A DNA stretch of 64,000 bases from Escherichia phage dw-ec. The notes beneath the pieces are model-generated. The model worked only from the letters and a program-made list of their open reading frames with translations, had not been told where the DNA came from and searched no databases. Within the stretch, counting starts at the first letter, position 1, and every line of letters begins with the position of its first letter. A program made the translations under genes and the position numbers. Positions 18,040 to 32,245 of the stretch are shown here, in pieces. Location: the sequence record OL739525.1; one strand, written 5' to 3'.

Positions 18040-18046
18040 ACTTCAC

Positions 18047-18994
18047 CTACAAACTTTCAATAACCTGGCGTCGCAACTCGTTTGCATCTGCCAGATTATA
18101 ATGTGTTCGAACATGTTCCGCCAAGAACAAACCACGATCTTCCCGATAGTTTGGATTGCGAAGAAGCTTAACAATTTCGTAATGCCATTCTGCTTTATTC
18201 TCTGCGTAAGCAACAGCGCGAGCATCTACAGGGTTAAAATAAGGTAATACCTTAGAACAAACAATTGGAATACCTTTTGCTCCAGCTTCCAGGATTTTGA
18301 GATTACTTTTACAATTATTAAAATCATTATCTACCAAAGGAGCTATAGCAATAGCATGACTTTCGTAAACACTCATGTAATTATCTAAATCTTTTACAGC
18401 GGCTTTATATTTGGCATTTGGTAAATTTCTGCGAATCTTAATCCACTCTTGTCCCGTGATGCTTTGTGATGCTTCATATCCCGCAATAGTAAGAAGTTCA
18501 TCATCGAAAGTATTAGAGACTAGTCGTAAATCTGGTTCGTGACTAGCACCGCCAGCCCATACAACAGGGGTACCGGATGAACGATCATTTGACAAAGTGA
18601 ATTGTCCACTATCAAAAGGAAGTGCATTTCGGATCACAACAACATTCCTATTTAAGTGACGGATCTTATATGCCAAATATTCTGTAGTCACAATAACCAC
18701 ATCAGCAAGCTTAACCATAGCTACAATAGCATGAGTGTTTGACTCGTATAGACTTGCTAAATAATGTTCTGGATTAAGTTGGTAGAAATCATCTAAATCT
18801 ACAACAATCTTAACACCTTGACGTTTCAAAGATAAAACGTATTCTGCACCTTTAGAGTGGATACGGTTAAACACAACAACATCTTTCTTAGGTTGAAGAT
18901 TATGGTTGTTAAATGGCATAACAATACGATGATAGTCACAACCGCTGTGAGGTTTTGCATCAATTTTTAGTTTAGACCATTTTTTATTTGACAT
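18047..18994 (-). CDS. putative glycosyltransferase (GT-B fold), paralog 2
   Basis: 315 aa; shares CD(F/Y)HR(V/I)V(L/M)P N-terminal motif and SNLKILEAGAKG(L/I)P C-terminal motif with 17095..18039. Confidence 0.55.
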   Translation of the reverse strand: MSNKKWSKLKIDAKPHSGCDYHRIVMPFNNHNLQPKKDVVVFNRIHSKGAEYVLSLKRQGVKIVVDLDDFYQLNPEHYLASLYESNTHAIVAMVKLADVVIVTTEYLAYKIRHLNRNVVVIRNALPFDSGQFTLSNDRSSGTPVVWAGGASHEPDLRLVSNTFDDELLTIAGYEASQSITGQEWIKIRRNLPNAKYKAAVKDLDNYMSVYESHAIAIAPLVDNDFNNCKSNLKILEAGAKGIPIVCSKVLPYFNPVDARAVAYAENKAEWHYEIVKLLRNPNYREDRGLFLAEHVRTHYNLADANELRRQVIESL

Positions 18995-19667
18995 GTGCTA
19001 GTGCCTCCTCATAGGAAATTCGGATTTTCCCATTTTTAATATCCTCTAAAGATGCTTTATATTCTTCCCAGTTAATCCCGATAGCAGCTTCTTTCTCTTC
19101 TTTTGTCAGATTAGCAAAAGGCATAGGATTGTTTCCAAAAACATCGTCTGGGTGGATATAAGCCATGATACGAAGTGGACAAGGTGTTGCCTGAATACCA
19201 TGATTCAAACCAGCAGCTTGTAAACGGTGTCCCCATTCAGCATCTTCAAAACCATAACCATGAGTGTAAGGACGGAAATAACCCATCTTCTCAACAACGG
19301 CACGAGAATACATTGCAAATTGACACATTGCAAGTTCCCAGAGAATAACTTCTCCTTTGCTTCCAACAACTTTATCTTTGAAGTACTCCGGCATACCAAA
19401 GAAATCCCATCCTCCAGAGACAGCTTGATCTACAAAATATGTTTCCCATCCCTCCATGACTGGGTAGCAATCGTCGTCAAAAATAAACCAATAATCATAA
19501 CCTTCTTCATAAAACTGGTGCATAAGTTCATTCCTGGCATAAGCTACACCTTTACGGTCTGGATCGTTGAATACTCGAAAATCTGCACGTGGATCTGTTA
19601 CAAGGTAGTCTTTAAGTGGACGGACACCTACAGTGATAACACCCACTCCGATTTTAATATTTTCCAT
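18984..19667 (-). CDS. putative glycosyltransferase (GT-A fold, DxD)
   Basis: 227 aa; WFIFDDDCYP (DxD) and YGFEDAEWGHRL motifs typical of GT-A family 2-like enzymes. Confidence 0.6.
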   Translation of the reverse strand: MENIKIGVGVITVGVRPLKDYLVTDPRADFRVFNDPDRKGVAYARNELMHQFYEEGYDYWFIFDDDCYPVMEGWETYFVDQAVSGGWDFFGMPEYFKDKVVGSKGEVILWELAMCQFAMYSRAVVEKMGYFRPYTHGYGFEDAEWGHRLQAAGLNHGIQATPCPLRIMAYIHPDDVFGNNPMPFANLTKEEKEAAIGINWEEYKASLEDIKNGKIRISYEEALAHVK

Positions 19668-19675
19668 TTTCTCTC

Positions 19676-20239
19676 CTAAATAGTTTTACTGTGATCATGA
19701 CAGTGTAATAAATGATGTATAGACCGTTGAGGATTTGTTTGACCTAATCTGTAAATGTGAAACAGATACATTCCCCGCATCAATCCTAACCTCTTCCCTT
19801 TTTCATGTAAAGTGCGAGAGAAAATTAAGTCGAATTGGATAGATTTTTCTTCGAAAGGAATTTCATTCCACAAGGATTTTCTAAAAAGCAAAAAGAAACC
19901 TGCTAGAGGTGTTCCGAAAGGAACTTCTTCAACACTCACTTTATGATATTCTCTTGCAATCTTAGCATATTCTATATGGTTTAGAATATCTGGATCATCG
20001 TTAATTTGGTTAGAGAAAAGCTGATAACCACTGCCTAACCTGTTACAAGTTGCACCTATTACATCAAAAGGTGGGTTTGACATAACAAGCTCTTCAAGCA
20101 TAGATGGTTGATCAGGTAGGAGGAACATTGTATCGGTATCTCTTAAACACACCCAACTATCATCTGGAAGAACGGCAATGGCTTCATTGATAGCCTTGCC
20201 GATATTTCCTGTCAGATAGGGAGTAATATAATAAATCAT
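19676..20239 (-). CDS. putative glycosyltransferase-like protein (GT-A-like)
   Basis: 187 aa; CLRDTDTMF DxD-like motif; weaker than neighbours. Confidence 0.4.
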   Translation of the reverse strand: MIYYITPYLTGNIGKAINEAIAVLPDDSWVCLRDTDTMFLLPDQPSMLEELVMSNPPFDVIGATCNRLGSGYQLFSNQINDDPDILNHIEYAKIAREYHKVSVEEVPFGTPLAGFFLLFRKSLWNEIPFEEKSIQFDLIFSRTLHEKGKRLGLMRGMYLFHIYRLGQTNPQRSIHHLLHCHDHSKTI

Positions 20240-21561: not shown

Positions 21562-22164
21562 TTATGGACATTCATACCATTCTTTTTTACCACCGAAGGC
21601 CATCACCACATCGCAAATATCCAGACCGGCTTTACCTACACCATATGCTTTCAGCTTCCATTCCCCATCTTCACGAACCAAGGAAGCCACGTGGCAGATT
21701 GTGTTACCAGCTACTTCAGGAGCCAGGAAGTCAAAATCCAGAATTTCCACATTACGTTCGGAGTCAAAGATTTTAAGCATACCTTCAGAAGCATGACCAA
21801 AACGTTTCAGACCTGTATCATCATCAATGGTCAGAACAAAGGCAATCTCTTGTGCATCAGGAGAGATTTTAGCCAGAGTAATATCAATCTGCTCCATGCT
21901 GCCAGTCCCATCACGAACATCGTCACCAGCGAAGGTAGAACGTTCAGGATCAAACTTGTTAGCGTAGCAAACCAGATGACGTGCAGACAGCATTTCAGGA
22001 TTGCCAGCGGCATTATGACGACAAACCAGTGCACTTACATCCAGATCCAGTTTAGAATCAGATTTCCAAGAGAATTCCAGGCGCAGTTCTTTCAGAGCCG
22101 GAGCAACTTTCTTCAGGGAAATTTTTTCGCTAGAGCCTTTTTTCAGGGAAATTTTATCAGTCAT
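21562..22164 (-). CDS. terD: TerD-family protein
   Basis: 200 aa; motifs parallel E. coli/plasmid TerD: LDLDVSALV, TFAGDDVRDGTGSMEQIDITL, EIAFVLTIDD, REDGEWKLKAYGVG. Confidence 0.85.
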   Translation of the reverse strand: MTDKISLKKGSSEKISLKKVAPALKELRLEFSWKSDSKLDLDVSALVCRHNAAGNPEMLSARHLVCYANKFDPERSTFAGDDVRDGTGSMEQIDITLAKISPDAQEIAFVLTIDDDTGLKRFGHASEGMLKIFDSERNVEILDFDFLAPEVAGNTICHVASLVREDGEWKLKAYGVGKAGLDICDVVMAFGGKKEWYECP

Positions 22165-22179
22165 CTTTTGTCTCCTCTA

Positions 22180-22449
22180 TTATTTAAGTGTAATACCAGT
22201 TACAGTCAATTCTACTTCCAAAAGCTTAGATGTGTTTTGGATTGATACTAATTGTGCATGATGGTTTAGTTCTACAGCGGAATAATCATTCTCCCCATCG
22301 TCTACTTTTAAATAAACAATGATTTCACTAAGGTCTAAACCATTTTCGTCAAATGCATTTTCATAGACGAAAGTATCTCCTACATCCAAATCTTTAATGG
22401 TAAGGCATCGTTTATTTACTTTTTGCTCATCAATTTCGAAGTTTAACAC
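22180..22449 (-). CDS. hypothetical protein (paralog family with 23471..23749)
   Basis: 89 aa; shares DLDVG(D/A)TF...GLD...VE(L/V)T(G/N)ITLK with 23471..23749. Confidence 0.55.
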   Translation of the reverse strand: MLNFEIDEQKVNKRCLTIKDLDVGDTFVYENAFDENGLDLSEIIVYLKVDDGENDYSAVELNHHAQLVSIQNTSKLLEVELTVTGITLK

Positions 22450-22678
22450 TTCTTCCTCCTAATGTTATCTCCGGTTTGTATATACGAAGAATTATAGCAT
22501 TTTCATTTTCTTTGTCAACCCATTCTTCATAATCGGGCCATACATGAATCTCTACTCTACTTACAATATCTTCCATTCGCACAGTCCCAATGAAATACTC
22601 TTTGAGACTGCGCATAATGAAAGCTTCTCTCTCGCGCCAATAATTTTCTACGACTTGAGAGGCAAGCTCGTCGATCAT
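22430..22678 (-). CDS. hypothetical protein
   Basis: 82 aa ORF. Confidence 0.5.
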   Translation of the reverse strand: MIDELASQVVENYWREREAFIMRSLKEYFIGTVRMEDIVSRVEIHVWPDYEEWVDKENENAIILRIYKPEITLGGRSVKLRN

Positions 22679-23469
22679 TTTTTAGCACCTACTTTAACAA
22701 CCCACTCTCCGAACTCTTCAGATAAGAGTTTGTCATAAAGCTCTGAATCTGTCAAGTCTAAATCTTTAATGCCAATAAAACCAACATTATCATAAGCATT
22801 TGCCAGTTCTTTCAGGAAGCCAAACTTCTCATTACCAACGCCAACCATGAACCAATAAATAGGTTTATTCTTATTCTCTTCAATAAGACGACGAACAGCA
22901 CTAGGATCACCATTCTCACCATCCGTCTGGAAGAATACAACACCAGGGGTAACGTCAGCACCTGGTTCAGATACAGCTACAACTTTTTCACGCTCTACAG
23001 ACACTGTTTCAGTTTTACCAAGCAGACGATTAAAGAAGCCTTTCTTTGGAGCCTCCTCTTGTACCACTTGTTTAGTGGTAATATATTTGGTAACAGTGCC
23101 AAAATACTCATCGTAGATATCTGCCATTACAGGGGCGTAATTTGTTCCACCTCCGATACGAACATTACGCATACATTTACCAACATAGTCATCGTAAACG
23201 TCTGCTGTTGCTGGAGTAAGCTCTTGGGAACTCGTATTGAAGGCCCACATATCAATTTGTTGATTATCGTCGAACAGCATACCAAAAGGAAGCAGTTTAC
23301 CTACAAAATCACTCACTACCCCACTAGAATATAGACCATGCATACTACCAGAAATATCTAGAGCACATGCTACACGAAGAACAATCTTACCTTCATTCAG
23401 GTTCTTATTCTTTTTCAGAGAGAAAGCAAGGTTTTCTTGACGTTTTTTCAGGCTGATTTTCTCGGACAT
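22675..23469 (-). CDS. von Willebrand factor A (vWA) domain protein with TerD-like N-terminal leader (TerY/TerF-like)
   Basis: 264 aa; MIDAS motif ALDISGSMHG; N-terminus MSEKISLKK resembles TerD N-terminus; AGGAGA RBS. Confidence 0.65.
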   Translation of the reverse strand: MSEKISLKKRQENLAFSLKKNKNLNEGKIVLRVACALDISGSMHGLYSSGVVSDFVGKLLPFGMLFDDNQQIDMWAFNTSSQELTPATADVYDDYVGKCMRNVRIGGGTNYAPVMADIYDEYFGTVTKYITTKQVVQEEAPKKGFFNRLLGKTETVSVEREKVVAVSEPGADVTPGVVFFQTDGENGDPSAVRRLIEENKNKPIYWFMVGVGNEKFGFLKELANAYDNVGFIGIKDLDLTDSELYDKLLSEEFGEWVVKVGAKK

Positions 23470-23470
23470 A

Positions 23471-23749
23471 TTATTTCTCCTTCTTAAGTGTAATATTGGT
23501 AACTTCTAAATCTACTTCCACCATATTTGTATCTGGTGGGATGCAATGAGTATAGCCTCGTTGTGCTAGTGATCCATTAATACAAATCGCACTGTTTGTG
23601 GAATTTTTAATGAACACCAAGTTACGGTAGGTATCCAACCCTGCGTCTTCATAGGCATCATAATACATGAATGTGGCCCCTACATCAAGATCTTCGAAAG
23701 CAATAGGTAAATCCTGACTTTTTTCTTCTTGAATATTGAATCTAAACAC
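23471..23749 (-). CDS. hypothetical protein (paralog of 22180..22449)
   Basis: GTG start at 23749 with GAGGAGG RBS gives 93 aa matching paralog length; alternative track start 23815. Confidence 0.45.
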   Translation of the reverse strand: MFRFNIQEEKSQDLPIAFEDLDVGATFMYYDAYEDAGLDTYRNLVFIKNSTNSAICINGSLAQRGYTHCIPPDTNMVEVDLEVTNITLKKEK

Positions 23750-24305
23750 GCATACCTCCTCTACCAATTTTGAAGCCCAAATCGTAAGCTTCCTTAGTGA
23801 TCTTTTGTAACTCACTTATAGGAAGTGTTACAAGAGGATCATCTTCTTCAATTTCCATCTTGTCATCTTCTGTTTCAATGAGAGTATTATGCACTTTGTG
23901 ATAAGGGTTGTCAACACGTTTAAACTTATTCTTTTCTGTGCTGAAAAAACAATCTGGATCTTCTTCACCATCACCCCAACCTTGGTTAGGATCTCCGTCA
24001 GATTGTTCTGTAGGGATTTCACCTGTAAAGTACTCTTCCAGCACCATAGCGATACCGTCCCTTGGATTTGAGGAATGCATCAAATCACAAACCTTACTCC
24101 AATCCATAGCCCATTCAAATCGTTCACGAACACCATTTTCATCCTCCTTTCCAGAGAAAACACAACCATAACTATCATAGTTGCCATACATCTCTTCAAT
24201 AACAACACCGTCCTTCAAAAGAAAGAGGTAGCAAGGTGATCCGTCGAAAGAAGTAGAAAGGGCAGCTTTGCCCGATTCTTTGCACAAAAAGCTAAAACAA
24301 CCCAT
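23742..24305 (-). CDS. hypothetical acidic protein
   Basis: 187 aa ORF. Confidence 0.55.
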   Translation of the reverse strand: MGCFSFLCKESGKAALSTSFDGSPCYLFLLKDGVVIEEMYGNYDSYGCVFSGKEDENGVRERFEWAMDWSKVCDLMHSSNPRDGIAMVLEEYFTGEIPTEQSDGDPNQGWGDGEEDPDCFFSTEKNKFKRVDNPYHKVHNTLIETEDDKMEIEEDDPLVTLPISELQKITKEAYDLGFKIGRGGMRV

Positions 24306-24703
24306 TACAAACCCTCCTTCAGATTATCAAGAGCTACAGTGGTTTCACAAAATTCTCCATAAGCTTTATGATGTTCCAGAAAAGCTTCGGGTCCACCCCA
24401 GTCATTATCTTGTGTATTCCAGCCATCTATAAAAGCATCTTCAATGATTGTGATCAGTTCCTGTCGAGTCAACGTAATGGTATCAGGTTTCTGCGTAGTT
24501 TCCACACGGAACCCTGGTTCTTCATAAAAACCTTTAGTTATAATGGATTCTAACTCTTCTGCATCACAGAGGAAGTAGCCACAAAGATAACACCAACCGT
24601 CATCATCTTTCATTACTTCATAAACTTCACCACTTGCCAAATTAGTGAAAAGAGTAGGGTCTGTTACTGTAAGTTTTAAAAGAATACCTGTTGGATTATA
24701 CAT
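24305..24703 (-). CDS. hypothetical protein
   Basis: 132 aa ORF, RBS GGAGGAAG. Confidence 0.55.
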   Translation of the reverse strand: MYNPTGILLKLTVTDPTLFTNLASGEVYEVMKDDDGWCYLCGYFLCDAEELESIITKGFYEEPGFRVETTQKPDTITLTRQELITIIEDAFIDGWNTQDNDWGGPEAFLEHHKAYGEFCETTVALDNLKEGL

Positions 24704-24869
24704 CTTCTTCCTCCTCTAAAATATGGAACCCGTAATTACAATAATCCTGAAAGGTTTCGTGTGCAAGATCTTCTATATCCTCTTGAGACATATCATCTTC
24801 AATTTCGATATCCACAACCTCATTGCATCCACACCAAGCAGTTTCAATATTCACTCGTAGTATTTTCAT
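24696..24869 (-). CDS. hypothetical small acidic protein (57 aa)
   Basis: Not in ORF track; ATG with GGAGGAGGAG RBS, start overlaps upstream stop (TAATG); hand-translated without stops. Confidence 0.35.
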   Translation of the reverse strand: MKILRVNIETAWCGCNEVVDIEIEDDMSQEDIEDLAHETFQDYCNYGFHILEEEEDV

Positions 24870-25066
24870 TACTCCTCCTCCTCATTGAAGTCAATATCTG
24901 CAAGGAGTTCGAATTTACGGAAGTTACGACAACCTTCATAAATATAACAATCACGACAAACTGCTAGAACACTTGGGGGATATATACCTCCCATCGGCGC
25001 GAATCGTTTTTCGTCATCATAACGGACACCAATGTCCTCATCAATTATATAGATACGGATTCTCAT
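24869..25066 (-). CDS. hypothetical Cys-containing protein
   Basis: 65 aa ORF (CRDC...C). Confidence 0.45.
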   Translation of the reverse strand: MRIRIYIIDEDIGVRYDDEKRFAPMGGIYPPSVLAVCRDCYIYEGCRNFRKFELLADIDFNEEEE

Positions 25067-26175
25067 TTACCAAGCCCTCGTTTCACAGCAGCTACCATCC
25101 CGTCTTCCAGAGATTGAACTTCATTAATATAATCAACACGAGCAGCACGGGCTTCCGTATTGATGCGGTTAGTTTCTTCCAACATCTTAACCAAGTTTTC
25201 CTGATCGTGACGCAGAGTTTCAATATCCAACACTTGACGGTTAGCCAGTGCTGCTGCTTCGATCTGATTCTGTGTGGCAAGATCGCTACCCAGTTTAATT
25301 GCCAGGTTAAATTCATCAAGAACGTTATTCTGCGTCTCTGCTGCTTTCATTTGACGTAAGCTCTCGATATACATTGAGAAGTTAGCAGAGTAAGCAGGAA
25401 TAACATTATTTACTATGTTACGCGCAGATCGCATTAAGCTTGCAGAAACTTTTTGCATACCTTGTACACGCGGTCCCATTTGGACACACAGTAGGCGCAA
25501 TGCTTTTAAATCTGCAATACGAATCTCCAGAAGATCCAAAGTATCTCGGATCACTTGTCGCTGTTCTACTGCATCTTCTGGAAGAGCAGCCAAAGCTTGT
25601 TCTTCTTTTTCATAGGTTGCTGTTAGAAGCTGCATATCTCGGTTCAAACTTGCAGCATATTGTCCAATAGCTTGATGTAGCTTTTCAAGATATACCAAGG
25701 AATCTTCTTCTTTGCGAATATCCATTTGAAGGTTCTTTACCAACTCTTCAATACGGTTATTAACATTATCAAACTCCCCGAACAGGTCTTCTTTCATACC
25801 CATAACTTTTTTAATGAGTTTAGTAATACCCTTGCTTTGTTTAATAGAGTTTGGATCAAGTTGTTTTGCCTGTTTAATCAAAGCTGTAAGTCGTTCACTC
25901 ATCTGATCGCCTTGATTACTACGTTGATGTTTTAACACCTCGGCATTCAAGGAACGCAAGGTTGTTCCTGCCTCTGCCCCAATCTCTTCAATCTCTTGTC
26001 GGGTCATAGAAGGCAAAACTGGAACTTCTTGCGGTGCCGCTGGTGCATAAACAGGACTGGCATCTAACACGCTTGGAGCGAATACAGATTTACTTGCATC
26101 TGTTGTTGCAGCGAATACACTCATTTCAGACTTCTTCTGACCACCAGTAGCTGCTTTTAAAAATGGACTTGTCAT
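25063..26175 (-). CDS. TelA-like (toxic anion resistance family) protein
   Basis: 370 aa, largely helical; LDPNS and DIETL segments resemble TelA/KlaA family; genomic context with TerD/TerC; needs HMM confirmation. Confidence 0.5.
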   Translation of the reverse strand: MTSPFLKAATGGQKKSEMSVFAATTDASKSVFAPSVLDASPVYAPAAPQEVPVLPSMTRQEIEEIGAEAGTTLRSLNAEVLKHQRSNQGDQMSERLTALIKQAKQLDPNSIKQSKGITKLIKKVMGMKEDLFGEFDNVNNRIEELVKNLQMDIRKEEDSLVYLEKLHQAIGQYAASLNRDMQLLTATYEKEEQALAALPEDAVEQRQVIRDTLDLLEIRIADLKALRLLCVQMGPRVQGMQKVSASLMRSARNIVNNVIPAYSANFSMYIESLRQMKAAETQNNVLDEFNLAIKLGSDLATQNQIEAAALANRQVLDIETLRHDQENLVKMLEETNRINTEARAARVDYINEVQSLEDGMVAAVKRGLGK

Positions 26176-26762
26176 TCTTCATTCTCCTCTTCTGCATCTC
26201 TTATATATGGTGAAACACCGTACTCTTTAGCTACTTTAACCCAATCATCCCATTTATACAACCATAATTTTCCTTCAGTTCCTTCTTTATCTGATTTCAA
26301 CCACATGTTAGGTTGCTTGCCTGGGTACATGCGATTAGGTTTACGATTATAACCTCTAACACATCTTGTCGCAAACCTATCTACCAGAACAAGAACATAT
26401 TTATACTCGTGGTTCAACGGCTCTTTGGAAGTGGCTTTAGGATTAGCCCCTAACTCTGCTGCCAGTTTTTGCCAATGAGCACCGTGCCTACTAAACTTAC
26501 CCATACAACCATCAATAGCGTGAGCAATTTCGTGCTTCATTGTATCCACGATCATATCTCTTGTAGAGTTCTTATGCAAGTGCCAATTTACAACAACAAT
26601 TTTATCTCGGTAGTTGCACCAACCGAAAGAGTTATTCACTTTGTTTCTAACACAAGCTTTATATCCTGCTTCACGTAACATGTTGTAGTAAACAGGAAAA
26701 TCTTCTTTTATTTCCTGCATCACTTCCCACCACAAGAGTTGCAAGTCTCTCTCGGTATGCAT
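26172..26762 (-). CDS. SprT-like zinc metallopeptidase-domain protein
   Basis: 196 aa; HEIAHAID (HExxH) within SprT-like context. Confidence 0.5.
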   Translation of the reverse strand: MHTERDLQLLWWEVMQEIKEDFPVYYNMLREAGYKACVRNKVNNSFGWCNYRDKIVVVNWHLHKNSTRDMIVDTMKHEIAHAIDGCMGKFSRHGAHWQKLAAELGANPKATSKEPLNHEYKYVLVLVDRFATRCVRGYNRKPNRMYPGKQPNMWLKSDKEGTEGKLWLYKWDDWVKVAKEYGVSPYIRDAEEENEE

Positions 26763-26764
26763 AC

Positions 26765-27358
26765 TTACACCTTAAAAGCGAAATGCGTGGTCGTGGCTTC
26801 AAAATCAGGGCCAGATAAACTTGCACTGAAATCTGAAATATTTGTAATTAAAAAGCTTTTATGCATACCTAACACAGCCACGCTTTCAATATCTTCTACT
26901 AACATTTCAATCATGTTAGAAACATGGCTGAACGTATAGTTTTGTTTTTTGATGGTGTAGAAAGAAAGACTCTCACCTGCTGTATAAGATACTTCTTCAA
27001 AATCTTTAATCGTATACTGTGTCCCATCAGTAAAGAAAATGGTAGCTTTATTAGTAGCACGTTTCTTGTTTTTTGGTCCTTTTTTACGTTTACTGCGAGT
27101 AGGCAAACCGTTTGGAAATACCGTAGCTACAAATTCTTCAGGAGAAACCTCCTTACCGAAATCATAACCGTAAGAAACAGCGTCTATAAACTCGTCGTCT
27201 TCATTTTTAAAATAATGAAAATAGGGCCAATTTGAGAGATTATCGAGCATCTTATGCTCATCCACAGCAGAGAACGTATCCCTCAAAGCACGTGTGATTT
27301 GCAAAGCATTAGGCAAACTTTTAACACCTGTAATGGAAGTACGGATAGAAATTGTCAT
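26765..27358 (-). CDS. hypothetical protein
   Basis: 197 aa ORF. Confidence 0.55.
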   Translation of the reverse strand: MTISIRTSITGVKSLPNALQITRALRDTFSAVDEHKMLDNLSNWPYFHYFKNEDDEFIDAVSYGYDFGKEVSPEEFVATVFPNGLPTRSKRKKGPKNKKRATNKATIFFTDGTQYTIKDFEEVSYTAGESLSFYTIKKQNYTFSHVSNMIEMLVEDIESVAVLGMHKSFLITNISDFSASLSGPDFEATTTHFAFKV

Positions 27359-27372
27359 TGTTTTTCTCCTTA

Positions 27373-27810
27373 TTAACGTCGCTTGCTACGAGATGAACTC
27401 TTTTTACTTAAAGGGCTATTGTAAGATTTACGAGTTGTATAGCTACTATTTGTTTTAAAAGTTTGTCTCGGCTTTTCATAAGTTTTTATCTCTTGTTTAG
27501 GCTTACCATAAAAATTAGTTTTCGGTTTAGGTGTATTATAATGCTTATTAATAATCGTTCTGTTATCGTTATAATCCCCACTGCTACGATTACTACCGCC
27601 ACTCATCATATGCCCTAACAACATACCTGTAGCAAACTCACCAACACCGCTACTACTAGAACCGCCACCATTGTTGATAATAGTTGTATCTCCGTCAGAT
27701 CCTTGTTGAGCGTATTGTTGAGGAGGTTGTTGGTATTGTGCAGGATTTGTTTCATCCTCGCAAGCTGTTAAAAAGATACAACCAATTAAAATCAGGGCTA
27801 GTTTTTTCAT
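27373..27810 (-). CDS. lipoprotein (candidate superinfection-exclusion protein)
   Basis: Internal ATG at 27810 with GAGGAA RBS; lipobox MKKLALILIGCIFLTAC; Gly/Ser-rich middle, basic tail. Confidence 0.55.
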   Translation of the reverse strand: MKKLALILIGCIFLTACEDETNPAQYQQPPQQYAQQGSDGDTTIINNGGGSSSSGVGEFATGMLLGHMMSGGSNRSSGDYNDNRTIINKHYNTPKPKTNFYGKPKQEIKTYEKPRQTFKTNSSYTTRKSYNSPLSKKSSSRSKRR

Positions 27811-27997
27811 ATTTGCTTTCCTCGTTTTGGCTATTAATACATCTGTGTTTGAAATCTCCAGAGAAGCAATAAAGTTGCTCTCCATCTCGGTATAAACTCA
27901 CTTTACTGCCGTTGATTACGCTTGTCAATACAAAAATTACAACAAACAACCCTATTGCAAAACAGATATTTTCAAACACAACCAACAAGTATTTCAT
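27752..27997 (-). CDS. hypothetical membrane protein
   Basis: 81 aa; one N-terminal TM helix; C-terminal part overlaps lipoprotein gene start so 3' extent uncertain. Confidence 0.4.
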   Translation of the reverse strand: MKYLLVVFENICFAIGLFVVIFVLTSVINGSKVSLYRDGEQLYCFSGDFKHRCINSQNEESKYEKTSPDFNWLYLFNSLRG

Positions 27998-28344
27998 TTT
28001 AAAAATACCTCATCATCAGTTTCATTATCCCAGAAGAACAAATCCCAACCATTCGGATCATTCCATTTGGCTGCTGGAGAAGTCCATATTTGTTCAATAT
28101 CAATATTCAAAACTTCACCGTTTCGTTTTGAAACAGCTTTAGTTAATTCCCAACGAGATACAGGCTCTACTTCTCCTGAACCACTTCCACAACAAGCTAC
28201 CACATTAGGAGGCAAATTAATCGGATCTTTGGTCACAATCATAACGCTTACCCCAGGGTAAACTTTTGAAAGATAATCTGAAATGTAATCCACATCACCA
28301 GGTAAATCCCAAACAAGTTCTTGAATTTCATCAAAATTATTCAT
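27994..28344 (-). CDS. hypothetical acidic protein
   Basis: 116 aa ORF downstream of terC terminator. Confidence 0.55.
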   Translation of the reverse strand: MNNFDEIQELVWDLPGDVDYISDYLSKVYPGVSVMIVTKDPINLPPNVVACCGSGSGEVEPVSRWELTKAVSKRNGEVLNIDIEQIWTSPAAKWNDPNGWDLFFWDNETDDEVFLK

Positions 28345-28361
28345 AAGTCTCTCCTATAAAA

Positions 28362-28384
28362 TAGCCTCCCGAAGGAGGCTCATC
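28362..28384 (-). terminator. rho-independent terminator
   Basis: GCCUCC-uucg-GGAGGC stem-loop with U-rich tail on minus strand after terC-like gene. Confidence 0.6.
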
Positions 28385-28386
28385 TA

Positions 28387-29361
28387 TTAAATAGCAGCTT
28401 CTTCTTTTTCAGGGAAGATAAAGCTTGCAATAACACCAAGAGCTAATGTGCCTAGAACAATCATCAGACTTACGTTAGGGGAAATATCATGCGGGAGGAA
28501 TGACCACTTGGCATGAAGTGTTTCACCGAACGGGTGGTACATAAGTTTAGCACCAACAAACACCAGAACCACAGCAACAGCTTTCTCTAAGTGAACCAGA
28601 TATTTCACAGCTACACTCAACACAAAGAAAAGTGCACGTAAACCAAGAACAGCCATCAGCATTGCAGAATAAACTAGCAGAGGTTCTTGTGTCACACCGA
28701 TCACAGCCGGAACTGAATCAAAAGAGAAGACAATATCTGTAAGCTCAATAACAAACACACAAAGAAGAGCAGGAGTTGCATATTTAATACCATTCTTAAT
28801 GGTGATGAACTTTTCACCATCCAGTGCATTGTGCACAGGCAGAACTTTACCTACTAAACGAACAGCCCAATGCTTAGAGTAATCAATATCCTCTTCTTCG
28901 TCACCACCTTTGATGATAGCCACGGCAGACCAAGCTACAATCAAACCGAACAACACTTGGACCGACCAATGAAGGTTAAACAAAGCGGTCCCTGCTGCAA
29001 CAAAAATACCTCGGAAGACAATGGCTCCTGCAATCCCCCAAAGTAGAATCTTATGTTGGAGATGTGTGCTCTTAATTCCAAAGCTTGCAAAAATCGCCAT
29101 GAACACCATCAGGTTATCTACAGAAAGACTCTTTTCCAACACATAGCCACTTAGGAAAAGCGCGGCAAACTCTTTACCATGTTCTACCCAAATGAATGCG
29201 TAATATCCTAAAGCTAAAGCAATCCAAAAAACAGACCAAAGCAAAGCAGATTTAATTCCAATTTCTTTATTCTCTTTATGACCAAAGAAATCGATACCAA
29301 TAGACAATGCCAAAATACCAACTAAAACAACTACATCAATAATTGGGAAACCGAGTTGCAT
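28387..29361 (-). CDS. terC: TerC-family integral membrane protein
   Basis: 324 aa multi-pass membrane protein; SLSVDNLMVF and ELTDIVFSFDSVPAVIGVTQEP motifs typical of TerC/Alx family. Confidence 0.8.
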   Translation of the reverse strand: MQLGFPIIDVVVLVGILALSIGIDFFGHKENKEIGIKSALLWSVFWIALALGYYAFIWVEHGKEFAALFLSGYVLEKSLSVDNLMVFMAIFASFGIKSTHLQHKILLWGIAGAIVFRGIFVAAGTALFNLHWSVQVLFGLIVAWSAVAIIKGGDEEEDIDYSKHWAVRLVGKVLPVHNALDGEKFITIKNGIKYATPALLCVFVIELTDIVFSFDSVPAVIGVTQEPLLVYSAMLMAVLGLRALFFVLSVAVKYLVHLEKAVAVVLVFVGAKLMYHPFGETLHAKWSFLPHDISPNVSLMIVLGTLALGVIASFIFPEKEEAAI

Positions 29362-29378
29362 TCTTTTCTCCTCTCTTT

Positions 29379-29437
29379 GCGGGGAACTATTCCCCGCTTC
29401 ATGTGATATATCTTACTCTTTTTAAGAACTATGTCAA
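29379..29437 (-). promoter_or_regulatory. promoter-leader cassette on minus strand (TTGACA-16-TAAGAT + GCGGGGAA-tag-TTCCCCGC stem-loop) driving terC
   Basis: Same -35/-10/hairpin/AAAGAGAGG leader architecture as the plus-strand early cassettes, here upstream of 28387..29361. Confidence 0.6.
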
Positions 29438-29440
29438 CAC

Positions 29441-29662
29441 TTATTTTGTTGAATGAGAGGAAAAGATTCCTCGTAATACCGCCAGAATAAACGAAACACA
29501 AACCACGGTCCAGAAGGTTACTGGGACAGTGATATCTGCATGACCCATAACTTCAGCAACATAGTTGTAAGCCAGCAACAGTAACCAAGCTGGAATCAAA
29601 CTAAGCATAAAAGCAATAACAAAAAAGCTTACCACTGCAACAATACCTGCAAAAACACCCAT
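29441..29662 (-). CDS. small membrane protein (2 TM helices)
   Basis: 73 aa hydrophobic ORF. Confidence 0.5.
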   Translation of the reverse strand: MGVFAGIVAVVSFFVIAFMLSLIPAWLLLLAYNYVAEVMGHADITVPVTFWTVVCVSFILAVLRGIFSSHSTK

Positions 29663-29674
29663 ACTAATCTCCTC

Positions 29675-30148
29675 TTAAAGTTTATAAATAGTCACATCGT
29701 GACCTGTTTTTACTAAAGTTTCTTCAATCATCACTTGGATGATAGCCCAATTACCTCCAGCATATCCAGCGCCAATCATAGGTAAGCCGATCTTACATTT
29801 TTGGTCACGGAGAAGCAAATCATTAGCCATAGCTATTAGTGCATCGTAAAGTGCATCATAGTCCAACTGACGACCTTTAGCATTGTATCCATAACGGTAT
29901 TGCCCGTATAGATTATATACCAAAGGGTCTGATTGTTCGTCTGGCACCCCTAAACTAAAACAACCTAGTTTACTTTGATCACCAGCCATTGTGTCTAAGT
30001 CTGCTGCATATGCGTAAGGAAATGCTTGTTTGATTTGTGGGGCAATACCTGCCCCCATATTACACATACAGTTGCAACAATGAGCAATAACAGTTACTTC
30101 ACCTGCTTTAGCGGCATCAATAAGATTACCTCTTTTCATTTTAAGCAT
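29675..30148 (-). CDS. macro domain-like protein (ADP-ribose processing)
   Basis: Internal ATG at 30148 with AAGGAG RBS; G.LIDA...VIAHCCNCMCNMGAGIA and later IGLPMIGAGYAGG resemble macro-domain Gly-rich loops. Confidence 0.5.
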   Translation of the reverse strand: MLKMKRGNLIDAAKAGEVTVIAHCCNCMCNMGAGIAPQIKQAFPYAYAADLDTMAGDQSKLGCFSLGVPDEQSDPLVYNLYGQYRYGYNAKGRQLDYDALYDALIAMANDLLLRDQKCKIGLPMIGAGYAGGNWAIIQVMIEETLVKTGHDVTIYKL

Positions 30149-30161
30149 TTTTAGCTCCTTA

Positions 30162-30989
30162 TTACAGAATGTGTTGTTTTGTGTAACGATCCAAGAATTC
30201 AAAGTTTTCAGCATACTTTGAAATTCGGTTGTAACCTTCTCCCAAACATCCAAAGAAAAGTTGCTCTACATAGTAATGTGGCAATTGGCTAAGAATGATT
30301 TTGAAGTCTTCATGATTTTGGCCCATAAGATACTTAATAGGACGAACAAGACACTGTGCATCACGTTCTTCATTAATCATTTTAACAAACGCTTCTGGTG
30401 TATTAATGTAGTTAAAATTCAGTTTAGCTTCGGTATCTGCTTGATTACCTTCGTATTTTGCAAAATACAAGAAGTAAACATCATTTTTAACTTGATTTTC
30501 ATCAAGGATCTCAATCAGTTTGTCTTCATGCGTTCCAGTGATATTTACATCATCAATGAATACAAGCTTCTTATCACCCCAGAATTCTTTGTTGCAGTAG
30601 AATGTATCCCCATCAATAAGTTTCTTACGACTAGCTTTATCCAAGAAACCATAATCGTTGATATAGCTAACTTTACGATGAATAATGTCCAGTTCTGCTG
30701 AACGACCTTGATCATATTGTGATTGCAACATATTAAAATAATTAATAAAATGATCTGTCATCATTGTTGCAGCATTATGCACATGGTTATAAGGAGAAGG
30801 AATGATAACAAATTGTTCCCCAATATGTTTCATTGCCACTTGAGCAAAAAACTGAAGTGCCAATTCTTTACCCATACGACGCGCAGCTTGGTTACTACCA
30901 AATTTCAATTTTGAATAATCTTGGATATCAAAAGTAGCAGTTTCCAGGTCATCAAATTTATTTGCAAAAATTTGAGTTTGATTACGCAT
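30162..30989 (-). CDS. phosphoribosyltransferase-like protein (type I PRTase PRPP motif)
   Basis: 275 aa; LVFIDDVNITGTH matches hhhhDDhxxTGxT PRPP-binding loop; GAGGAGA RBS. Confidence 0.55.
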   Translation of the reverse strand: MRNQTQIFANKFDDLETATFDIQDYSKLKFGSNQAARRMGKELALQFFAQVAMKHIGEQFVIIPSPYNHVHNAATMMTDHFINYFNMLQSQYDQGRSAELDIIHRKVSYINDYGFLDKASRKKLIDGDTFYCNKEFWGDKKLVFIDDVNITGTHEDKLIEILDENQVKNDVYFLYFAKYEGNQADTEAKLNFNYINTPEAFVKMINEERDAQCLVRPIKYLMGQNHEDFKIILSQLPHYYVEQLFFGCLGEGYNRISKYAENFEFLDRYTKQHIL

Positions 30990-31638
30990 TTACAATTTCT
31001 CCTCTTTTAAGTTTCTCTAGTAAGTCGTTAGGGTTCTTAATATGACAGAAGTTAAATCCTAAGTCAACACATTTTCCATCATATTCTTCACTATCACCTA
31101 CATGCAACACTTCGTGCCCTAACAGAGGGATCGGAGAATACGTGAGCGTGCGAGCAAAGAATCGCGGATCTGGTTTACAAAGTAAAGCTTCATCCGAGAA
31201 ATGGGTGAACTCAAAACAATTCCAACTATCAAACTTACAAGCACGACGCAGGATATCCCCTGATATGAAGTTGGTATTGCTCTTAATACTCAAATCATAA
31301 CGCCCCGAAAGATACAGCAAGTACATCGGCAGATCCACGGCTACGTGTGGTGGAAACTTAAGGAACCACTGTTCACACTCGAAACGAAGCTTTGCAGACT
31401 TCCAAGGCGTTATCCCAAGTTCAGAACCAAGTCTTTCCCAGGCGTATGCTGCACACTCGGCTTTGCCTTGAAGTGCTGCATTATCCAGTTCCTTTTTGAT
31501 CTTTTTATAAGCTGCTCTTGCTTCCACTTCCGTAATATCTCCATATTTTGCGATAGTCCAGGCTCGCATGTCTGCGTAATTGGAGTTTGCTGTGATCAGT
31601 GTGTTCCATACATCAAAAGAGATATGTTTAATAGTCAT
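30982..31638 (-). CDS. HAD-superfamily hydrolase
   Basis: 218 aa; motif I FDVWNTLI and motif IV-like HVGDSEEYD. Confidence 0.55.
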   Translation of the reverse strand: MTIKHISFDVWNTLITANSNYADMRAWTIAKYGDITEVEARAAYKKIKKELDNAALQGKAECAAYAWERLGSELGITPWKSAKLRFECEQWFLKFPPHVAVDLPMYLLYLSGRYDLSIKSNTNFISGDILRRACKFDSWNCFEFTHFSDEALLCKPDPRFFARTLTYSPIPLLGHEVLHVGDSEEYDGKCVDLGFNFCHIKNPNDLLEKLKRGEIVNA

Positions 31639-31639
31639 A

Positions 31640-32245
31640 TTAAGCCCACCATGCGTCTAAGTTAAGATTACTGTCCACTACCACTTGTTCTATGTGGTAG
31701 CCTTTTATCTGTATCCCACTATTCAAGAGCATATCATACGCTTCATTGAAACGCAACTTATCTTCTGCGGAATATAAGCGAGCATTATAAAATCGGTAAT
31801 CAACTTCTTCAGCATTAGAAGAAATACGGAAGAAGTTTGTTTCTACTTCGGGATCACTTGCTGAAGTCTTAATGTGAACTTCTCCGTAATTTTCTTTACT
31901 TAGATCCATGAAAAGAACACAGGCAACATGTTTAAACATTCGTTCCAGCTTGTAACGAACAACATTGAAACCTGCATTCTCAAGTTTTTCTACACACTGC
32001 AACATTAAAGTAGTGTCGAGATCGCTTTGATACTTTGTTAACATACGATCACGTTGAGACTTTGTATCCCGATGTAAATCAATTGTTGTGCATTTGGCAC
32101 CAATAATCTTAGCTGCTTTCATCAACTCTTCAGAACTAACGTTAGATAAAGTAAGATGAAAATGGGCTTTCCACACTTTTTTAGCAGGGACACCAAAAGA
32201 TTTATCCCCACTATTCGGCATGTTGACTACTACACTATGTTGCAT
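31640..32245 (-). CDS. 2H phosphoesterase-family protein (LigT/CPDase-like)
   Basis: 201 aa; two H-x-T motifs (HLTL, HIKT) ~95 residues apart. Confidence 0.45.
   Translation of the reverse strand: MQHSVVVNMPNSGDKSFGVPAKKVWKAHFHLTLSNVSSEELMKAAKIIGAKCTTIDLHRDTKSQRDRMLTKYQSDLDTTLMLQCVEKLENAGFNVVRYKLERMFKHVACVLFMDLSKENYGEVHIKTSASDPEVETNFFRISSNAEEVDYRFYNARLYSAEDKLRFNEAYDMLLNSGIQIKGYHIEQVVVDSNLNLDAWWA

What the first reader, a model, noticed from the sequence alone, without database searches (positions are those of the whole stretch)
21562..32245. Phage-encoded Ter-like gene set (TerD, vWA, TelA-like, TerC) contiguous with a PRTase/HAD/macro/2H operon
Within about 11 kb on one strand the window carries a TerD-family protein (21562..22164, with segments closely paralleling E. 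coli TerD such as TFAGDDVRDGTGSMEQIDITL and REDGEWKLKAYGVG), a vWA protein with a TerD-like N-terminus (22675..23469), a TelA-like helical protein (25063..26175), a TerC-family membrane protein (28387..29361), and immediately upstream a phosphoribosyltransferase-like, HAD hydrolase, macro-domain and 2H-phosphoesterase cluster (29675..32245). In bacteria, Ter loci pair TerD/TerC/TelA/vWA proteins with a PRTase/HAD biosynthetic module proposed to make a nucleoside-like metabolite, and the classical ter operon confers phage inhibition and colicin resistance. The same combination inside a lytic phage replication block is unusual and suggests the phage carries its own membrane-stress or metabolite pathway, possibly to exclude competitors or to neutralise a host Ter-type response.
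Basis: partly seen in the sequence, partly recalled or inferred. Interest (0 to 1): 0.85.

Follow-up and report, generated by a model that had tools for sequence, protein, structure and literature searches.

The report
Known phage Ter-like gene cluster
This E. coli phage (a phAPEC8-type myovirus) carries a real, conserved set of Ter-type membrane and metal stress genes next to a small nucleotide-enzyme operon, but the set is already annotated and discussed in the literature, is common in large phages, and still has no tested function.

Summary
The window is a Phapecoctavirus (99.4% identical to Escherichia phage ETEC-TG). Seven of the eight domain calls hold at the stated coordinates: TerD, vWA-TerF-like, TelA, TerC (Alx subfamily), PRTase_3 (ComF-like), an IA-type HAD and a macrodomain. 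The "2H phosphoesterase" call (31640-32245) fails both HMM and structure tests. That protein belongs to an uncharacterised family that is often fused to NUDIX hydrolases.

The cluster is not unusual. The same genes are annotated in public phage records and were flagged in phi92 relatives in 2015. Iyer et al. (2021) described phage Ter systems with PRTase and HAD and proposed that they exclude rival phages. TelA, TerC, TerD and PRTase_3 each occur in 148-224 phage records.

Three refinements came out of this work:
- HAD and PRTase_3 form an obligate two-gene cassette. It sits inside Ter clusters in at least four divergent phage-like lineages and stands alone in Rhizobiaceae.
- The cassette is not orthologous to the classical ter biosynthetic module (PRTase_2/TRSP, StiP, ATP-grasp, C-C lyase).
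- TerC is an independently transcribed cassette that is exchanged between phage genera.

Function remains inferred. Verdict: genuine, already known, modest interest.

The parts
21562..22164 (-). Single-domain TerD protein (200 aa)
   Evidence: PF02342 E 3e-28. Full-length match to Klebsiella TerD 2KXT, E 1.5e-15. 100% identical in more than 20 Phapecoctavirus records and 81% identical in phi92.
22180..22449 (-). 89-aa protein, paralogue of the 114-aa protein at 23471-23815
   Evidence: BLASTP E 3e-13, 33% identity. phi92 has one copy.
22491..22518 (-). Perfect extended -10 sigma-70 consensus promoter (TTGACA-16-TG-TATAAT) upstream of the 89-aa gene and terD
   Evidence: 12/12 match with TG. 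Expected about 0.0008 such sites per strand in 15 kb. Not experimentally verified.
22675..23469 (-). vWA-TerF-like protein with an intact MIDAS motif (DISGS at residues 38-42)
   Evidence: PF10138 E 1.6e-37. Motif read from the sequence. 67% identical in phi92.
23471..23815 (-). 114-aa paralogue (relatives annotate a shorter 23471-23749 CDS), preceded by an 11/12 sigma-70-like promoter at 23886-23914
23742..24305 (-). 187-aa conserved protein with no assignable domain
   Evidence: No Pfam or PADLOC hit. 76% identical in phi92, similar to TelA.
25063..26175 (-). TelA-family all-helical protein (370 aa)
   Evidence: PF05816 E 3e-33. The AF2 model is two very long helices, pLDDT 71. No significant structural neighbour.
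26172..26762 (-). SprT-like Zn-metalloprotease (HEIAH). Its stop codon overlaps the telA start codon
   Evidence: PF10263 E 4e-9. Motif found, coordinates. Not detected at the corresponding position in the phi92 locus examined.
27373..27810 (-). Predicted lipoprotein (MKKLALILIGCIFLTAC, lipobox LTAC), Gly/Ser/Asn-rich
   Evidence: Sequence and lipobox scan. The phi92 gp180 homologue has an annotated signal peptide.
27752..27997 (-). 81-aa single-pass membrane protein
   Evidence: Hydropathy. 49% identical in phi92.
28363..28380 (-). Intrinsic terminator immediately after terC
   Evidence: Independently annotated in phage ASO2A.
28387..29361 (-). TerC/Alx-subfamily integral membrane protein (324 aa), a separately transcribed and exchangeable cassette
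   Evidence: PF03741 E 3e-40. TIGR03718 319 bits, above cut-off. Gene-precise allele replacement versus SKA64.
29379..29437 (-). Sigma-70-like promoter (TTGACA-16-TAAGAT) plus a 5'-UTR hairpin ahead of terC
   Evidence: Promoter also annotated in ASO2A. No Mn riboswitch found.
29441..29662 (-). 73-aa two-pass membrane protein
   Evidence: Hydropathy. 60% identical in phi92.
29675..30148 (-). Macrodomain protein of the TARG1/DarG/SCO6735 class (157 aa from the ATG used in relatives)
   Evidence: phrog_335 8e-54. PDB 5E3B 2.5e-12, DarG 5M31 and TARG1. PADLOC DarG 5.6e-10.
30162..30989 (-). PRTase_3 (ComF-like) phosphoribosyltransferase with an invariant PRPP loop DDVxITGxH
   Evidence: PF15610 E 2e-41. 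Alignment A3.
30982..31638 (-). IA-type HAD hydrolase, always directly upstream of PRTase_3 and overlapping it by 8 nt. Motif I is FDVWNTL (Trp at the Asp+2 position)
   Evidence: Alignment A2. 2OM6 match 1e-20. Adjacent to PRTase_3 in every locus that carries PRTase_3.
31640..32245 (-). 201-aa protein of an uncharacterised family (invariant HxT and ExH strand motifs). Not a demonstrable 2H enzyme
   Evidence: 258 cluster representatives at E<=0.001; of the 148 retrieved from the 150 best, 13 are NUDIX fusions, one an HD_4 fusion and one an HTH_3 fusion. PADLOC 'AbiEi' 3.6e-13.

Best explanation
This is the Stephanstirmvirinae (phAPEC8/phi92) version of the already described phage-borne Ter system.

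Shown:
- An envelope- and metal-centred gene set: a TerC/Alx-type divalent-cation membrane protein, one TerD domain protein, a MIDAS-bearing vWA-TerF-like protein and a coiled-coil TelA. With them sit a lipoprotein and two small membrane proteins that are conserved across genera.
- Upstream, a tightly packed enzyme operon: the 201-aa protein, HAD, PRTase_3 and the macrodomain.
- The HAD and PRTase_3 genes form an obligate translationally coupled pair with intact catalytic motifs.

Inferred:
- The genes are read by host RNA polymerase from sigma-70-type promoters during the early or middle phase.
- PRTase_3 joins an unknown base to PRPP, and the HAD partner processes the product into a nucleoside-like small molecule.
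- The Ter proteins change the ion and membrane state of the infected cell, so that the infection is protected against superinfecting phages, colicin-like agents or membrane-targeting host suicide responses. The plasmid ter locus confers the same phenotypes.

I put identity as a phage Ter system at about 0.95. I put the protective or exclusion mechanism at about 0.35-0.4.
For: - Domain assignments.
- The locus is conserved with the same order in phi92 (TerD 81%, TelA 79%, TerC 71%, vWA 67%, PRTase 65%, HAD 49%), together with the small membrane proteins.
- HAD and PRTase_3 sit inside Ter clusters in independent phage-like contigs with only 46-49% identical PRTase: TerC-x-TerD-x-vWA-HAD-PRTase in L009 and L010, and TelA-vWA-..-TerC-x-HAD-PRTase-TerD in L014 and L015. 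Two Bacteroidetes MAG contigs carry two TerD genes (plus TerC in one) near the pair.
- Catalytic motifs are invariant across 12 divergent pairs.
- A perfect extended -10 sigma-70 promoter lies before terD, with about 0.0008 expected by chance. Promoter and terminators bracket terC.
- Membrane and lipoprotein features.
- TerC-family proteins export Mn2+ or metalate exported enzymes (PMC10550928 and PMC10197570, from their titles and abstracts).
- The superinfection-exclusion hypothesis for phage Ter systems is published (PMC7824862).
Against: - No experiment exists for any phage Ter gene. Warring et al. state that the functions during infection are unknown (PMC9796965).
- The HAD and PRTase_3 pair also occurs without nearby Ter genes: Rhizobiaceae replicons, Rhizobium phages and XaC1-type phages. 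In phiCbK-like phages it lies 28-40 kb from TerD.
- In the window, predicted terminators and a separate promoter divide the enzyme operon, terC and the telA-to-terD unit.
- The HAD partner lacks the Asp+2 general acid/base, having an invariant Trp instead, so a simple phosphatase role is not secure.
- None of the Ter proteins or HAD/PRTase_3 matches a PADLOC defence model; only the macrodomain (DarG) and the 201-aa protein ('AbiEi') do.
- TelA gave no informative structural neighbour.
Confidence: 0.5

Rival explanations
1. There are two unrelated modules that merely share the early-gene block. The 201-aa protein, HAD, PRTase_3 and the macrodomain would form a nucleotide, ADP-ribose or NAD-type salvage or counter-defence operon, co-transcribed with nrdD and nrdG. 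The Ter proteins would be a separate membrane module.
For: - No terminator-like site is predicted between nrdD and the macrodomain gene, while terC has its own promoter and terminator.
- HAD and PRTase_3 stand alone in Rhizobiaceae, Rhizobium phages and XaC1-like phages.
- NAD-related neighbours occur elsewhere: an NMN adenylyltransferase/Nudix gene in a Rhizobium phage, and PnuC plus an AAA_28 protein (possibly NadR-type kinase) in L010.
- The macrodomain resembles DarG.
- The 201-aa family is fused to NUDIX and HD_4 hydrolases, and a homologue sits next to anti-CBASS Acb1 in L037.
Against: In four independent lineages the HAD and PRTase_3 pair is physically embedded between Ter genes, not just near them. 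PRTase_3 and TerD show almost the same phage distribution: Escherichia 104 versus 105 records, Brevundimonas 7 versus 7, Caulobacter 4 versus 4.
Confidence: 0.2
2. The set manages metals for the phage's own benefit. TerC moves Mn2+ or other divalent cations, or metalates exported phage proteins. TerD and the vWA protein buffer Ca2+ or Mg2+. Together they support phage metalloenzymes and envelope proteins rather than excluding competitors.
For: - TerC is in the Alx subfamily. TerC-family proteins export Mn2+ and metalate exoenzymes (PMC10550928, PMC10197570, PMC13274385).
- The vWA MIDAS motif is intact.
- Neighbours include ribonucleotide reductases, a Zn-protease-like SprT protein, a lipoprotein and a secreted-type cell-wall hydrolase.
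- TerC alone is carried by many smaller phages.
Against: There is no Mn riboswitch or other metal-sensing element. This idea does not explain TelA or the HAD and PRTase_3 pair. The exchange of TerC alleles between genera fits a conflict-type or host-specific role at least as well.
Confidence: 0.2
3. One reading: the phage proteins act as decoys that neutralise a host Ter-type defence.
For: Only the general fact that plasmid ter loci inhibit phages (Whelan et al. 1995, as cited in PMC8386662).
Against: Many of these phages were isolated and propagated on E. coli K-12 MG1655, which lacks a ter island by general knowledge. The phage proteins keep their functional motifs (MIDAS, PRPP loop) rather than looking like inactive mimics. 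The phage set is only about 31% identical to enterobacterial plasmid TerD.
Confidence: 0.05

Closest known systems
The same locus in phi92 (gp172-gp187) and phAPEC8 (gp200-gp219), and annotated Phapecoctavirus records such as SKA64
   Same: Same genes in the same order. The window is 96.5-99.4% identical at the DNA level to the listed Phapecoctavirus records, and phi92 proteins are 49-81% identical for the named domain genes. TerD, vWA-TerF-like, TelA, TerC, macro, PRTase and HAD are already named in SKA64. The phi92 genes were flagged as TerD and tellurite resistance in 2015.
   Different: In the loci compared, phi92 shows no match to the 201-aa protein or the SprT-like protein, and has only one copy of the small 89/114-aa protein. 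The TerC allele differs between otherwise near-identical phages.
[quoted passage not shown]
   Same: Same component classes and the same proposed logic: a nucleoside-like signal made by PRTase and HAD, TerD as ligand binder, TerC in the membrane, and TelA with vWA under the membrane. That paper extends the idea to 'certain other related smaller tailed phages'.
   Different: That work names jumbo phages. I did not check whether ME3 uses PRTase_3. Here the genome is about 150 kb and the locus is split into several transcription units.
Classical terZABCDEF locus with its biosynthetic module (examined here on Klebsiella plasmid pRJA166a)
   Same: It shares the TerC, TerD and vWA-TerF-like families and the general theme of a PRTase plus a HAD.
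   Different: The plasmid locus has five TerD-domain genes (TerZ, A, D, E and the TerD part of TerF), TerB, PRTase_2+TRSP, StiP+PELOTA_1, ATPgrasp_Ter, a C-C_Bond_Lyase and a PF12710 HAD with the canonical DFDGT motif. The phage has one TerD, no TerB, PRTase_3, an IA-type HAD with FDVWNTL, and also TelA. The phage PRTase finds no Enterobacteriaceae ter plasmid by tblastn.
Abbreviated Ter clusters of PhiPsa374-like and PhiKp34 phages (terC, terD, terF-vWA, telA)
   Same: Same four-family core in virulent phages, with function stated as unknown.
   Different: No Pseudomonas or PhiPsa-like records appear among those listed or tallied by genus in the PRTase_3 search.
Bacillus subtilis yceCDEFGH operon (three TerD paralogues, TerC/MeeF, TelA/YceH)
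   Same: Same TerD, TerC and TelA core as an envelope-stress operon (operon composition from my own knowledge). The TerC member MeeF(YceF) functions in metalating enzymes during export (PMC10550928 abstract).
   Different: It is bacterial, has no vWA protein and no PRTase or HAD. I did not test it here.

Membership tests
Ter core set (TerD, TerC, TelA, vWA-TerF-like) in the sense of Anantharaman et al. 2012 and Iyer et al. 2021 | TerD-domain protein | tested here: met
   PF02342 E 3e-28. Full-length match to TerD structures 2KXT and 3IBZ.
Ter core set (TerD, TerC, TelA, vWA-TerF-like) in the sense of Anantharaman et al. 2012 and Iyer et al. 2021 | TerC-family membrane protein | tested here: met
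   PF03741 E 3e-40. TIGR03718 above its cut-off. Multiple hydrophobic segments.
Ter core set (TerD, TerC, TelA, vWA-TerF-like) in the sense of Anantharaman et al. 2012 and Iyer et al. 2021 | TelA and vWA-TerF-like proteins | tested here: met
   PF05816 E 3e-33 and PF10138 E 1.6e-37. MIDAS motif DISGS present.
Ter core set (TerD, TerC, TelA, vWA-TerF-like) in the sense of Anantharaman et al. 2012 and Iyer et al. 2021 | Conserved co-localisation of the components | tested here: met
   Same order in phi92 and in unrelated phage-like contigs.
Classical terZABCDEF tellurite-resistance operon | Several TerD paralogues (TerZ, A, D, E, F) and TerB | tested here: not met
   Only one TerD-domain ORF. 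No TerB hit among the 22 ORFs of the locus. The plasmid comparator has them.
Classical terZABCDEF tellurite-resistance operon | Confers tellurite, phage and colicin resistance | not testable with these tools
   This needs phenotypic assays. Warring et al. consider tellurium resistance unlikely for incomplete phage sets.
Ter-associated biosynthetic module of classical loci | PRTase_2+TRSP, StiP(+PELOTA), ATPgrasp_Ter and a C-C bond lyase | tested here: not met
   All are present on pRJA166a. None was found among the locus ORFs. The phage enzyme is PRTase_3 and finds no Enterobacteriaceae ter plasmid by tblastn.
Ter-associated biosynthetic module of classical loci | A PRTase paired with a HAD-fold hydrolase | tested here: met
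   Met at superfamily level only: PRTase_3 plus an IA-type HAD, always adjacent.
HAD phosphatases | Motif I DxDx(T/V), with Asp+2 as the general acid/base, plus motifs II-IV | tested here: inconclusive
   The nucleophile Asp, the motif II Ser, the motif III Lys and the motif IV GD...D are invariant, but Asp+2 is an invariant Trp (FDVWNTL). PH0253/2OM6, of unknown function, has the same motif.
Macrodomain (TARG1/DarG/SCO6735 class) | Macrodomain fold and sequence signature | tested here: met
   PDB sequence matches to 5E3B, 2FG1, 5M31 and 4J5Q. PADLOC DarG 5.6e-10 over the whole domain. The Pfam Macro score is just under its cut-off. Catalytic activity was not tested.
2H phosphoesterase superfamily (claimed for 31640-32245) | Two HxT/S motifs | tested here: not met
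   The first motif, H30-L-T32, is invariant. The second is E122-x-H124-x-K, not HxT/S.
2H phosphoesterase superfamily (claimed for 31640-32245) | Match to a 2H profile or a 2H structure | tested here: not met
AbiEi antitoxin (suggested by PADLOC for 31640-32245) | N-terminal winged-helix DNA-binding domain, and pairing with an AbiEii nucleotidyltransferase | tested here: not met
   PADLOC 'AbiEi' models hit at 3.6e-13. However, the AF2 model has no helix-turn-helix, no Pfam AbiEi family matches, no solved AbiEi matches, and no Pfam-recognisable AbiEii gene is adjacent in the window, L036 or L037.

The most novel reading that the evidence does not exclude
The HAD and PRTase_3 pair makes a so far unidentified nucleoside-like molecule. 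Its HAD partner invariably has Trp in place of the catalytic Asp+2. The molecule would act together with the phage Ter proteins as a phage-encoded system that stabilises or re-programmes the infected cell's membrane, either against membrane-targeting abortive-infection effectors or against rival phages. The between-genus swapping of TerC alleles would then be a trace of an arms race. The neighbouring 201-aa protein and the DarG-like macrodomain would be further counter-defence enzymes in the same island.
Probability: 0.2. Interest if true: 0.65.

Novelty: already known. Interest (0 to 1): 0.28.

Why it matters
Ter-type genes are among the most widespread accessory genes of large virulent phages, including phages used in therapy cocktails. 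No function has been shown for them in any phage. This locus lies in easily handled E. coli K-12 phages, for example the BASEL collection relatives JohannJBalmer and EmilieFrey and the MG1655 phages anhysbys and tuntematon. That makes it a practical place to test the published superinfection-exclusion idea and to identify the product of the HAD and PRTase_3 pair. As a discovery it adds little, because both the gene set and its interpretation are already in the literature and in GenBank annotation.

Tried and rejected

2. AbiEi identity for the same protein (PADLOC hit). Not accepted: no HTH, no Pfam or PDB AbiEi match, no Pfam-recognisable adjacent AbiEii gene, and no plasmid homologue at E<=1.

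3. Orthology of the phage PRTase and HAD with the classical ter biosynthetic module. Rejected.

4. A Mn2+ (yybP-ykoY) riboswitch or any Rfam RNA near terC. None found.

5. TelA fold assignment, for example ESCRT-III/PspA-like. The AF2 model has modest confidence, and Foldseek gave only non-significant long-helix matches: alpha-pore-forming toxin components, BAR domains and designed bundles.

6. A solved relative of PRTase_3, TelA or TerC. None by sequence.

7. The afdb50 fold library was unavailable.

8. Anantharaman et al. 2012 (PMC4104200) is not held in the library, so statements about it rest on citing papers and my own knowledge.

9. A TerD domain at the N-terminus of the vWA protein. Only a short shared motif.

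10. TelA homologues in the compact L009 and L010 clusters. The roughly 400-aa proteins there have no Pfam TelA match, and the L010 one shows no BLASTP similarity to the window TelA.

Full report
**What the window is.** The 10.7-kb region matches 62 phage records over at least 80% of its length. The best is Escherichia phage ETEC-TG at 99.4% identity, and phAPEC8 is 98.2% identical. The window is therefore a Phapecoctavirus of the subfamily Stephanstirmvirinae, with a genome of about 150 kb. All genes from about 8 kb to 44 kb lie on the minus strand (GC skew, annotation). This block contains DNA polymerase I, primase/helicase, four glycosyltransferases, a SleB-type cell-wall hydrolase, the region of interest, nrdG and nrdD, and a UvrD-type helicase.

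**Checking the observation.**
- Pfam places 21562-22164 in TerD (E 3e-28) and 22675-23469 in vWA-TerF-like (1.6e-37).
- It places 25063-26175 in TelA (3e-33), 28387-29361 in TerC (3e-40) and 30162-30989 in PRTase_3, the ComF-like family (2e-41).
- TerC also passes NCBI's curated TerC/Alx subfamily model.
- The HAD call is weak in Pfam. However, a profile of the family matches the HAD structure 2OM6 at 1e-20.
- The macrodomain is just under Pfam's cut-off. It matches phrog_335 at 8e-54, the solved macrodomains SCO6735, BT1257, DarG and TARG1, and PADLOC's DarG model over the whole domain.
- The TerD protein matches Klebsiella TerD over its full length at E 1.5e-15, and enterobacterial plasmid TerD proteins at 31% identity. 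It is a genuine family member, but not "closely parallel".
- The vWA protein shares only a ~20-residue KISLKK motif with TerD.

The first conserved strand motif, H30-x-T32, looks like a 2H motif. The second is E122-x-H124-x-K.

An exhaustive profile search shows that this is a real family of 258 cluster representatives. I retrieved 148 of the 150 best. Thirteen are fusions to NUDIX domains with an intact Nudix box. One is fused to a SpoT-type HD_4 domain and one to an HTH. PADLOC labels the family "AbiEi" (3.6e-13), but nothing else supports that label.

The protein is separable from the rest of the cluster:
- The phi92 locus shows no match to it, and the phage search returned about 60 Escherichia records against 104 for PRTase_3.
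- It occurs in Rheinheimera Barba phages, which do not appear in the PRTase_3 search tally.
- In one viral contig a homologue sits directly beside an anti-CBASS Acb1 gene.

It is best described as an uncharacterised, nucleotide-associated domain.

**Anatomy.** The region is not one operon.
- A terminator precedes nrdD. No terminator-like site is predicted from nrdD through nrdG, a 74-aa ORF, the 201-aa gene, HAD, PRTase_3, the macrodomain gene and a two-pass membrane protein. The HAD and PRTase genes overlap by 8 nt.
- terC has its own sigma-70-like promoter and a 5'-UTR hairpin, and is followed at once by a strong terminator.
- A third unit runs through a chain of overlapping ORFs. It contains a 116-aa protein, a single-pass membrane protein, a lipoprotein, a 197-aa protein, a SprT-like protease, TelA, four small proteins, the 114-aa protein, vWA, an 82-aa protein, the 89-aa protein and TerD.
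- Inside this unit are an 11/12 sigma-70 match before the 114-aa gene and a perfect extended -10 consensus before the 89-aa gene and terD. About 0.0008 perfect matches would be expected by chance.
- The 89-aa and 114-aa proteins are paralogues.
- No Rfam family is present, including the Mn2+ riboswitch that controls bacterial alx.

**Comparative evidence.** phi92, a different genus, keeps the same order. Protein identities are TerD 81%, vWA 67%, the 187-aa protein 76%, TelA 79% and TerC 71%. The two-pass membrane protein is 60% identical, the macrodomain 49%, PRTase 65% and HAD 49%.

The HAD gene lies directly upstream of PRTase_3 in every locus that carries PRTase_3. These include XaC1, Rhizobium phages, CcrColossus, five metagenomic contigs, twelve Rhizobiaceae loci and two Bacteroidetes MAG contigs. 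The PRPP loop and HAD motifs are invariant across them.

In four of five metagenomic phage-like contigs with 46-49% identical PRTase, the pair is embedded in a compact Ter cluster. The two Bacteroidetes MAG contigs have two TerD genes close by, and one also has TerC. Elsewhere the pair is alone or tens of kilobases from TerD. The link between the enzyme pair and Ter genes is therefore recurrent but not obligatory.

**Comparison with the classical ter locus.** A Klebsiella ter plasmid carries TerZ, A, B, C, D, E and a truncated TerF. It also carries PRTase_2+TRSP, StiP+PELOTA_1, ATPgrasp_Ter, a C-C bond lyase, and a PF12710 HAD with the canonical DFDGT motif. The phage PRTase finds no such plasmid by tblastn. 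The phage HAD belongs to a different subfamily, in which the Asp+2 position is an invariant Trp. The resemblance is thematic, not orthologous.

**What is already known.**
- Zschach et al. 2015 list phi92 gp172, gp173 and gp178 as TerD and tellurite-resistance genes.
- Iyer et al. 2021 describe phage Ter systems, including one with PRTase and HAD. They propose use against superinfecting phages and extend the idea to smaller tailed phages.
- Two other papers report terC, terD, terF-vWA and telA in PhiKp34 and PhiPsa374. The PhiPsa374 paper states that the function is unknown.
- GenBank record SKA64 names nearly every domain.
- Across 50,697 phage records, TelA is found in 224, TerC in 176, PRTase_3 in 156 and TerD in 148.

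**How it probably works.**
- Shown: the domain families, the intact motifs, the conservation, and the membrane and lipoprotein character of several partners.
- Inferred: early expression from host-type promoters. PRTase_3 couples an unknown base to PRPP and the HAD partner processes the product. TerC alters divalent-cation flux, as characterised TerC/Alx proteins do. TerD, vWA and TelA form a metal-dependent, membrane-proximal assembly.

The most likely benefit is protection of the infected cell. That would mean exclusion of other phages or colicin-like agents, or resistance to membrane-damaging suicide defences, as proposed in the literature. I give this about 0.35-0.4. The rivals are a pure metal-management role, and two independent modules in which the enzyme operon serves nucleotide, ADP-ribose or counter-defence functions. 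Neutralising a host Ter system is unlikely.

**Verdict.** The finding is already known and ordinary for large virulent phages. Its remaining interest is that the function is still untested and that this locus sits in tractable E. coli phages.

Noticed in passing
window 28387-29361 (terC) versus L001 (phage SKA64) and L007 (phi92): terC is a gene-precise allelic replacement. The flanks are 97.6-100% identical to SKA64 at the DNA level, but the terC ORF is only 66-82% identical. SKA64's TerC is the phi92 type (94.8% aa identity to phi92, 73% to the window). This suggests cassette exchange between two phage genera.
   Followed up: partly
window 31640-32245: The 201-aa protein belongs to an uncharacterised family with 258 cluster representatives and invariant H30, T32, R97, K99, E101, E122, H124, S142, N144, E186, D191 and D197. 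Among 148 retrieved members, 13 are fused to NUDIX domains with an intact Nudix box, one to HD_4 and one to HTH_3. PADLOC calls the family 'AbiEi', with no other support.
   Followed up: partly
L037 4980-6000 (IMG/VR contig 3300035492_000044): A 36%-identical homologue of the 201-aa protein overlaps the start of an anti-CBASS Acb1 homologue (PF23474, 46.8 bits), followed by an RNase H gene. This hints at an anti-defence neighbourhood.
   Followed up: no
window 30982-31638 and alignment A2: The HAD partner of PRTase_3 has motif I FDVWNTL in most of 12 divergent homologues, and the Trp at the Asp+2 general acid/base position is invariant in all 12. The archaeal structural-genomics protein PH0253 (2OM6) has the same motif. 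L-2-haloacid dehalogenase is also a full-length match.
   Followed up: partly
window 22180-22449 and 23471-23815: Two paralogous small proteins (33% identity, E 3e-13) each sit just downstream of a strong sigma-70-type promoter, one ahead of terD and one ahead of the vWA gene. phi92 has only one copy.
   Followed up: partly
window 29675-30148: The macrodomain matches DarG models over the whole domain (PADLOC 5.6e-10; NCBIfam DarG over residues 3-49, 1e-8). It could be a de-ADP-ribosylase that counters DarT-type defence. The only phage anti-DarT factor read about here (AdfB) is not a macrodomain.
   Followed up: partly
window 26172-26175: The stop codon of the SprT-like metalloprotease gene (HEIAH motif) overlaps the telA start codon, which suggests translational coupling. 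No SprT-like gene was detected in the phi92 locus examined.
   Followed up: no
L010 11270-14612 and L004 6283-6855: NAD-related genes lie just downstream of HAD and PRTase_3 in other elements. L010 has an NMN transporter (PnuC) and an AAA_28 protein that may be a NadR-type kinase. Rhizobium phage RHph_TM2_3B has an NMN adenylyltransferase/Nudix gene.
   Followed up: no
Public records matched; L016: Records named Campylobacter phage B15, C3 and A110a, Acinetobacter phage vB_AbaM_ABPW7 and Klebsiella phage ZCKP1 are 98-100% identical to E. coli Phapecoctavirus or Justusliebigvirus genes. Pseudomonas phage PsgM04F carries a 91%-identical TelA. A 13-kb contig with a 100% identical PRTase is binned in a 'Proteobacteria bacterium' MAG. 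These are probably host mislabels or bin contamination.
   Followed up: no
window 17000-20239: Four consecutive glycosyltransferase genes lie between the SleB-type hydrolase and the primase/helicase gene (annotation of relatives). One shows a weak TET-associated glycosyltransferase hit (E 0.001). They might modify DNA or the cell surface.
   Followed up: no
window 29379-29397: A GC-rich hairpin (GCGGGGA-atag-TTCCCCGC) lies between the terC promoter and its ribosome-binding site. It has no T-run. One group annotated it as a terminator in phage ASO2A. It may be regulatory or a stabilising 5' structure.
   Followed up: no
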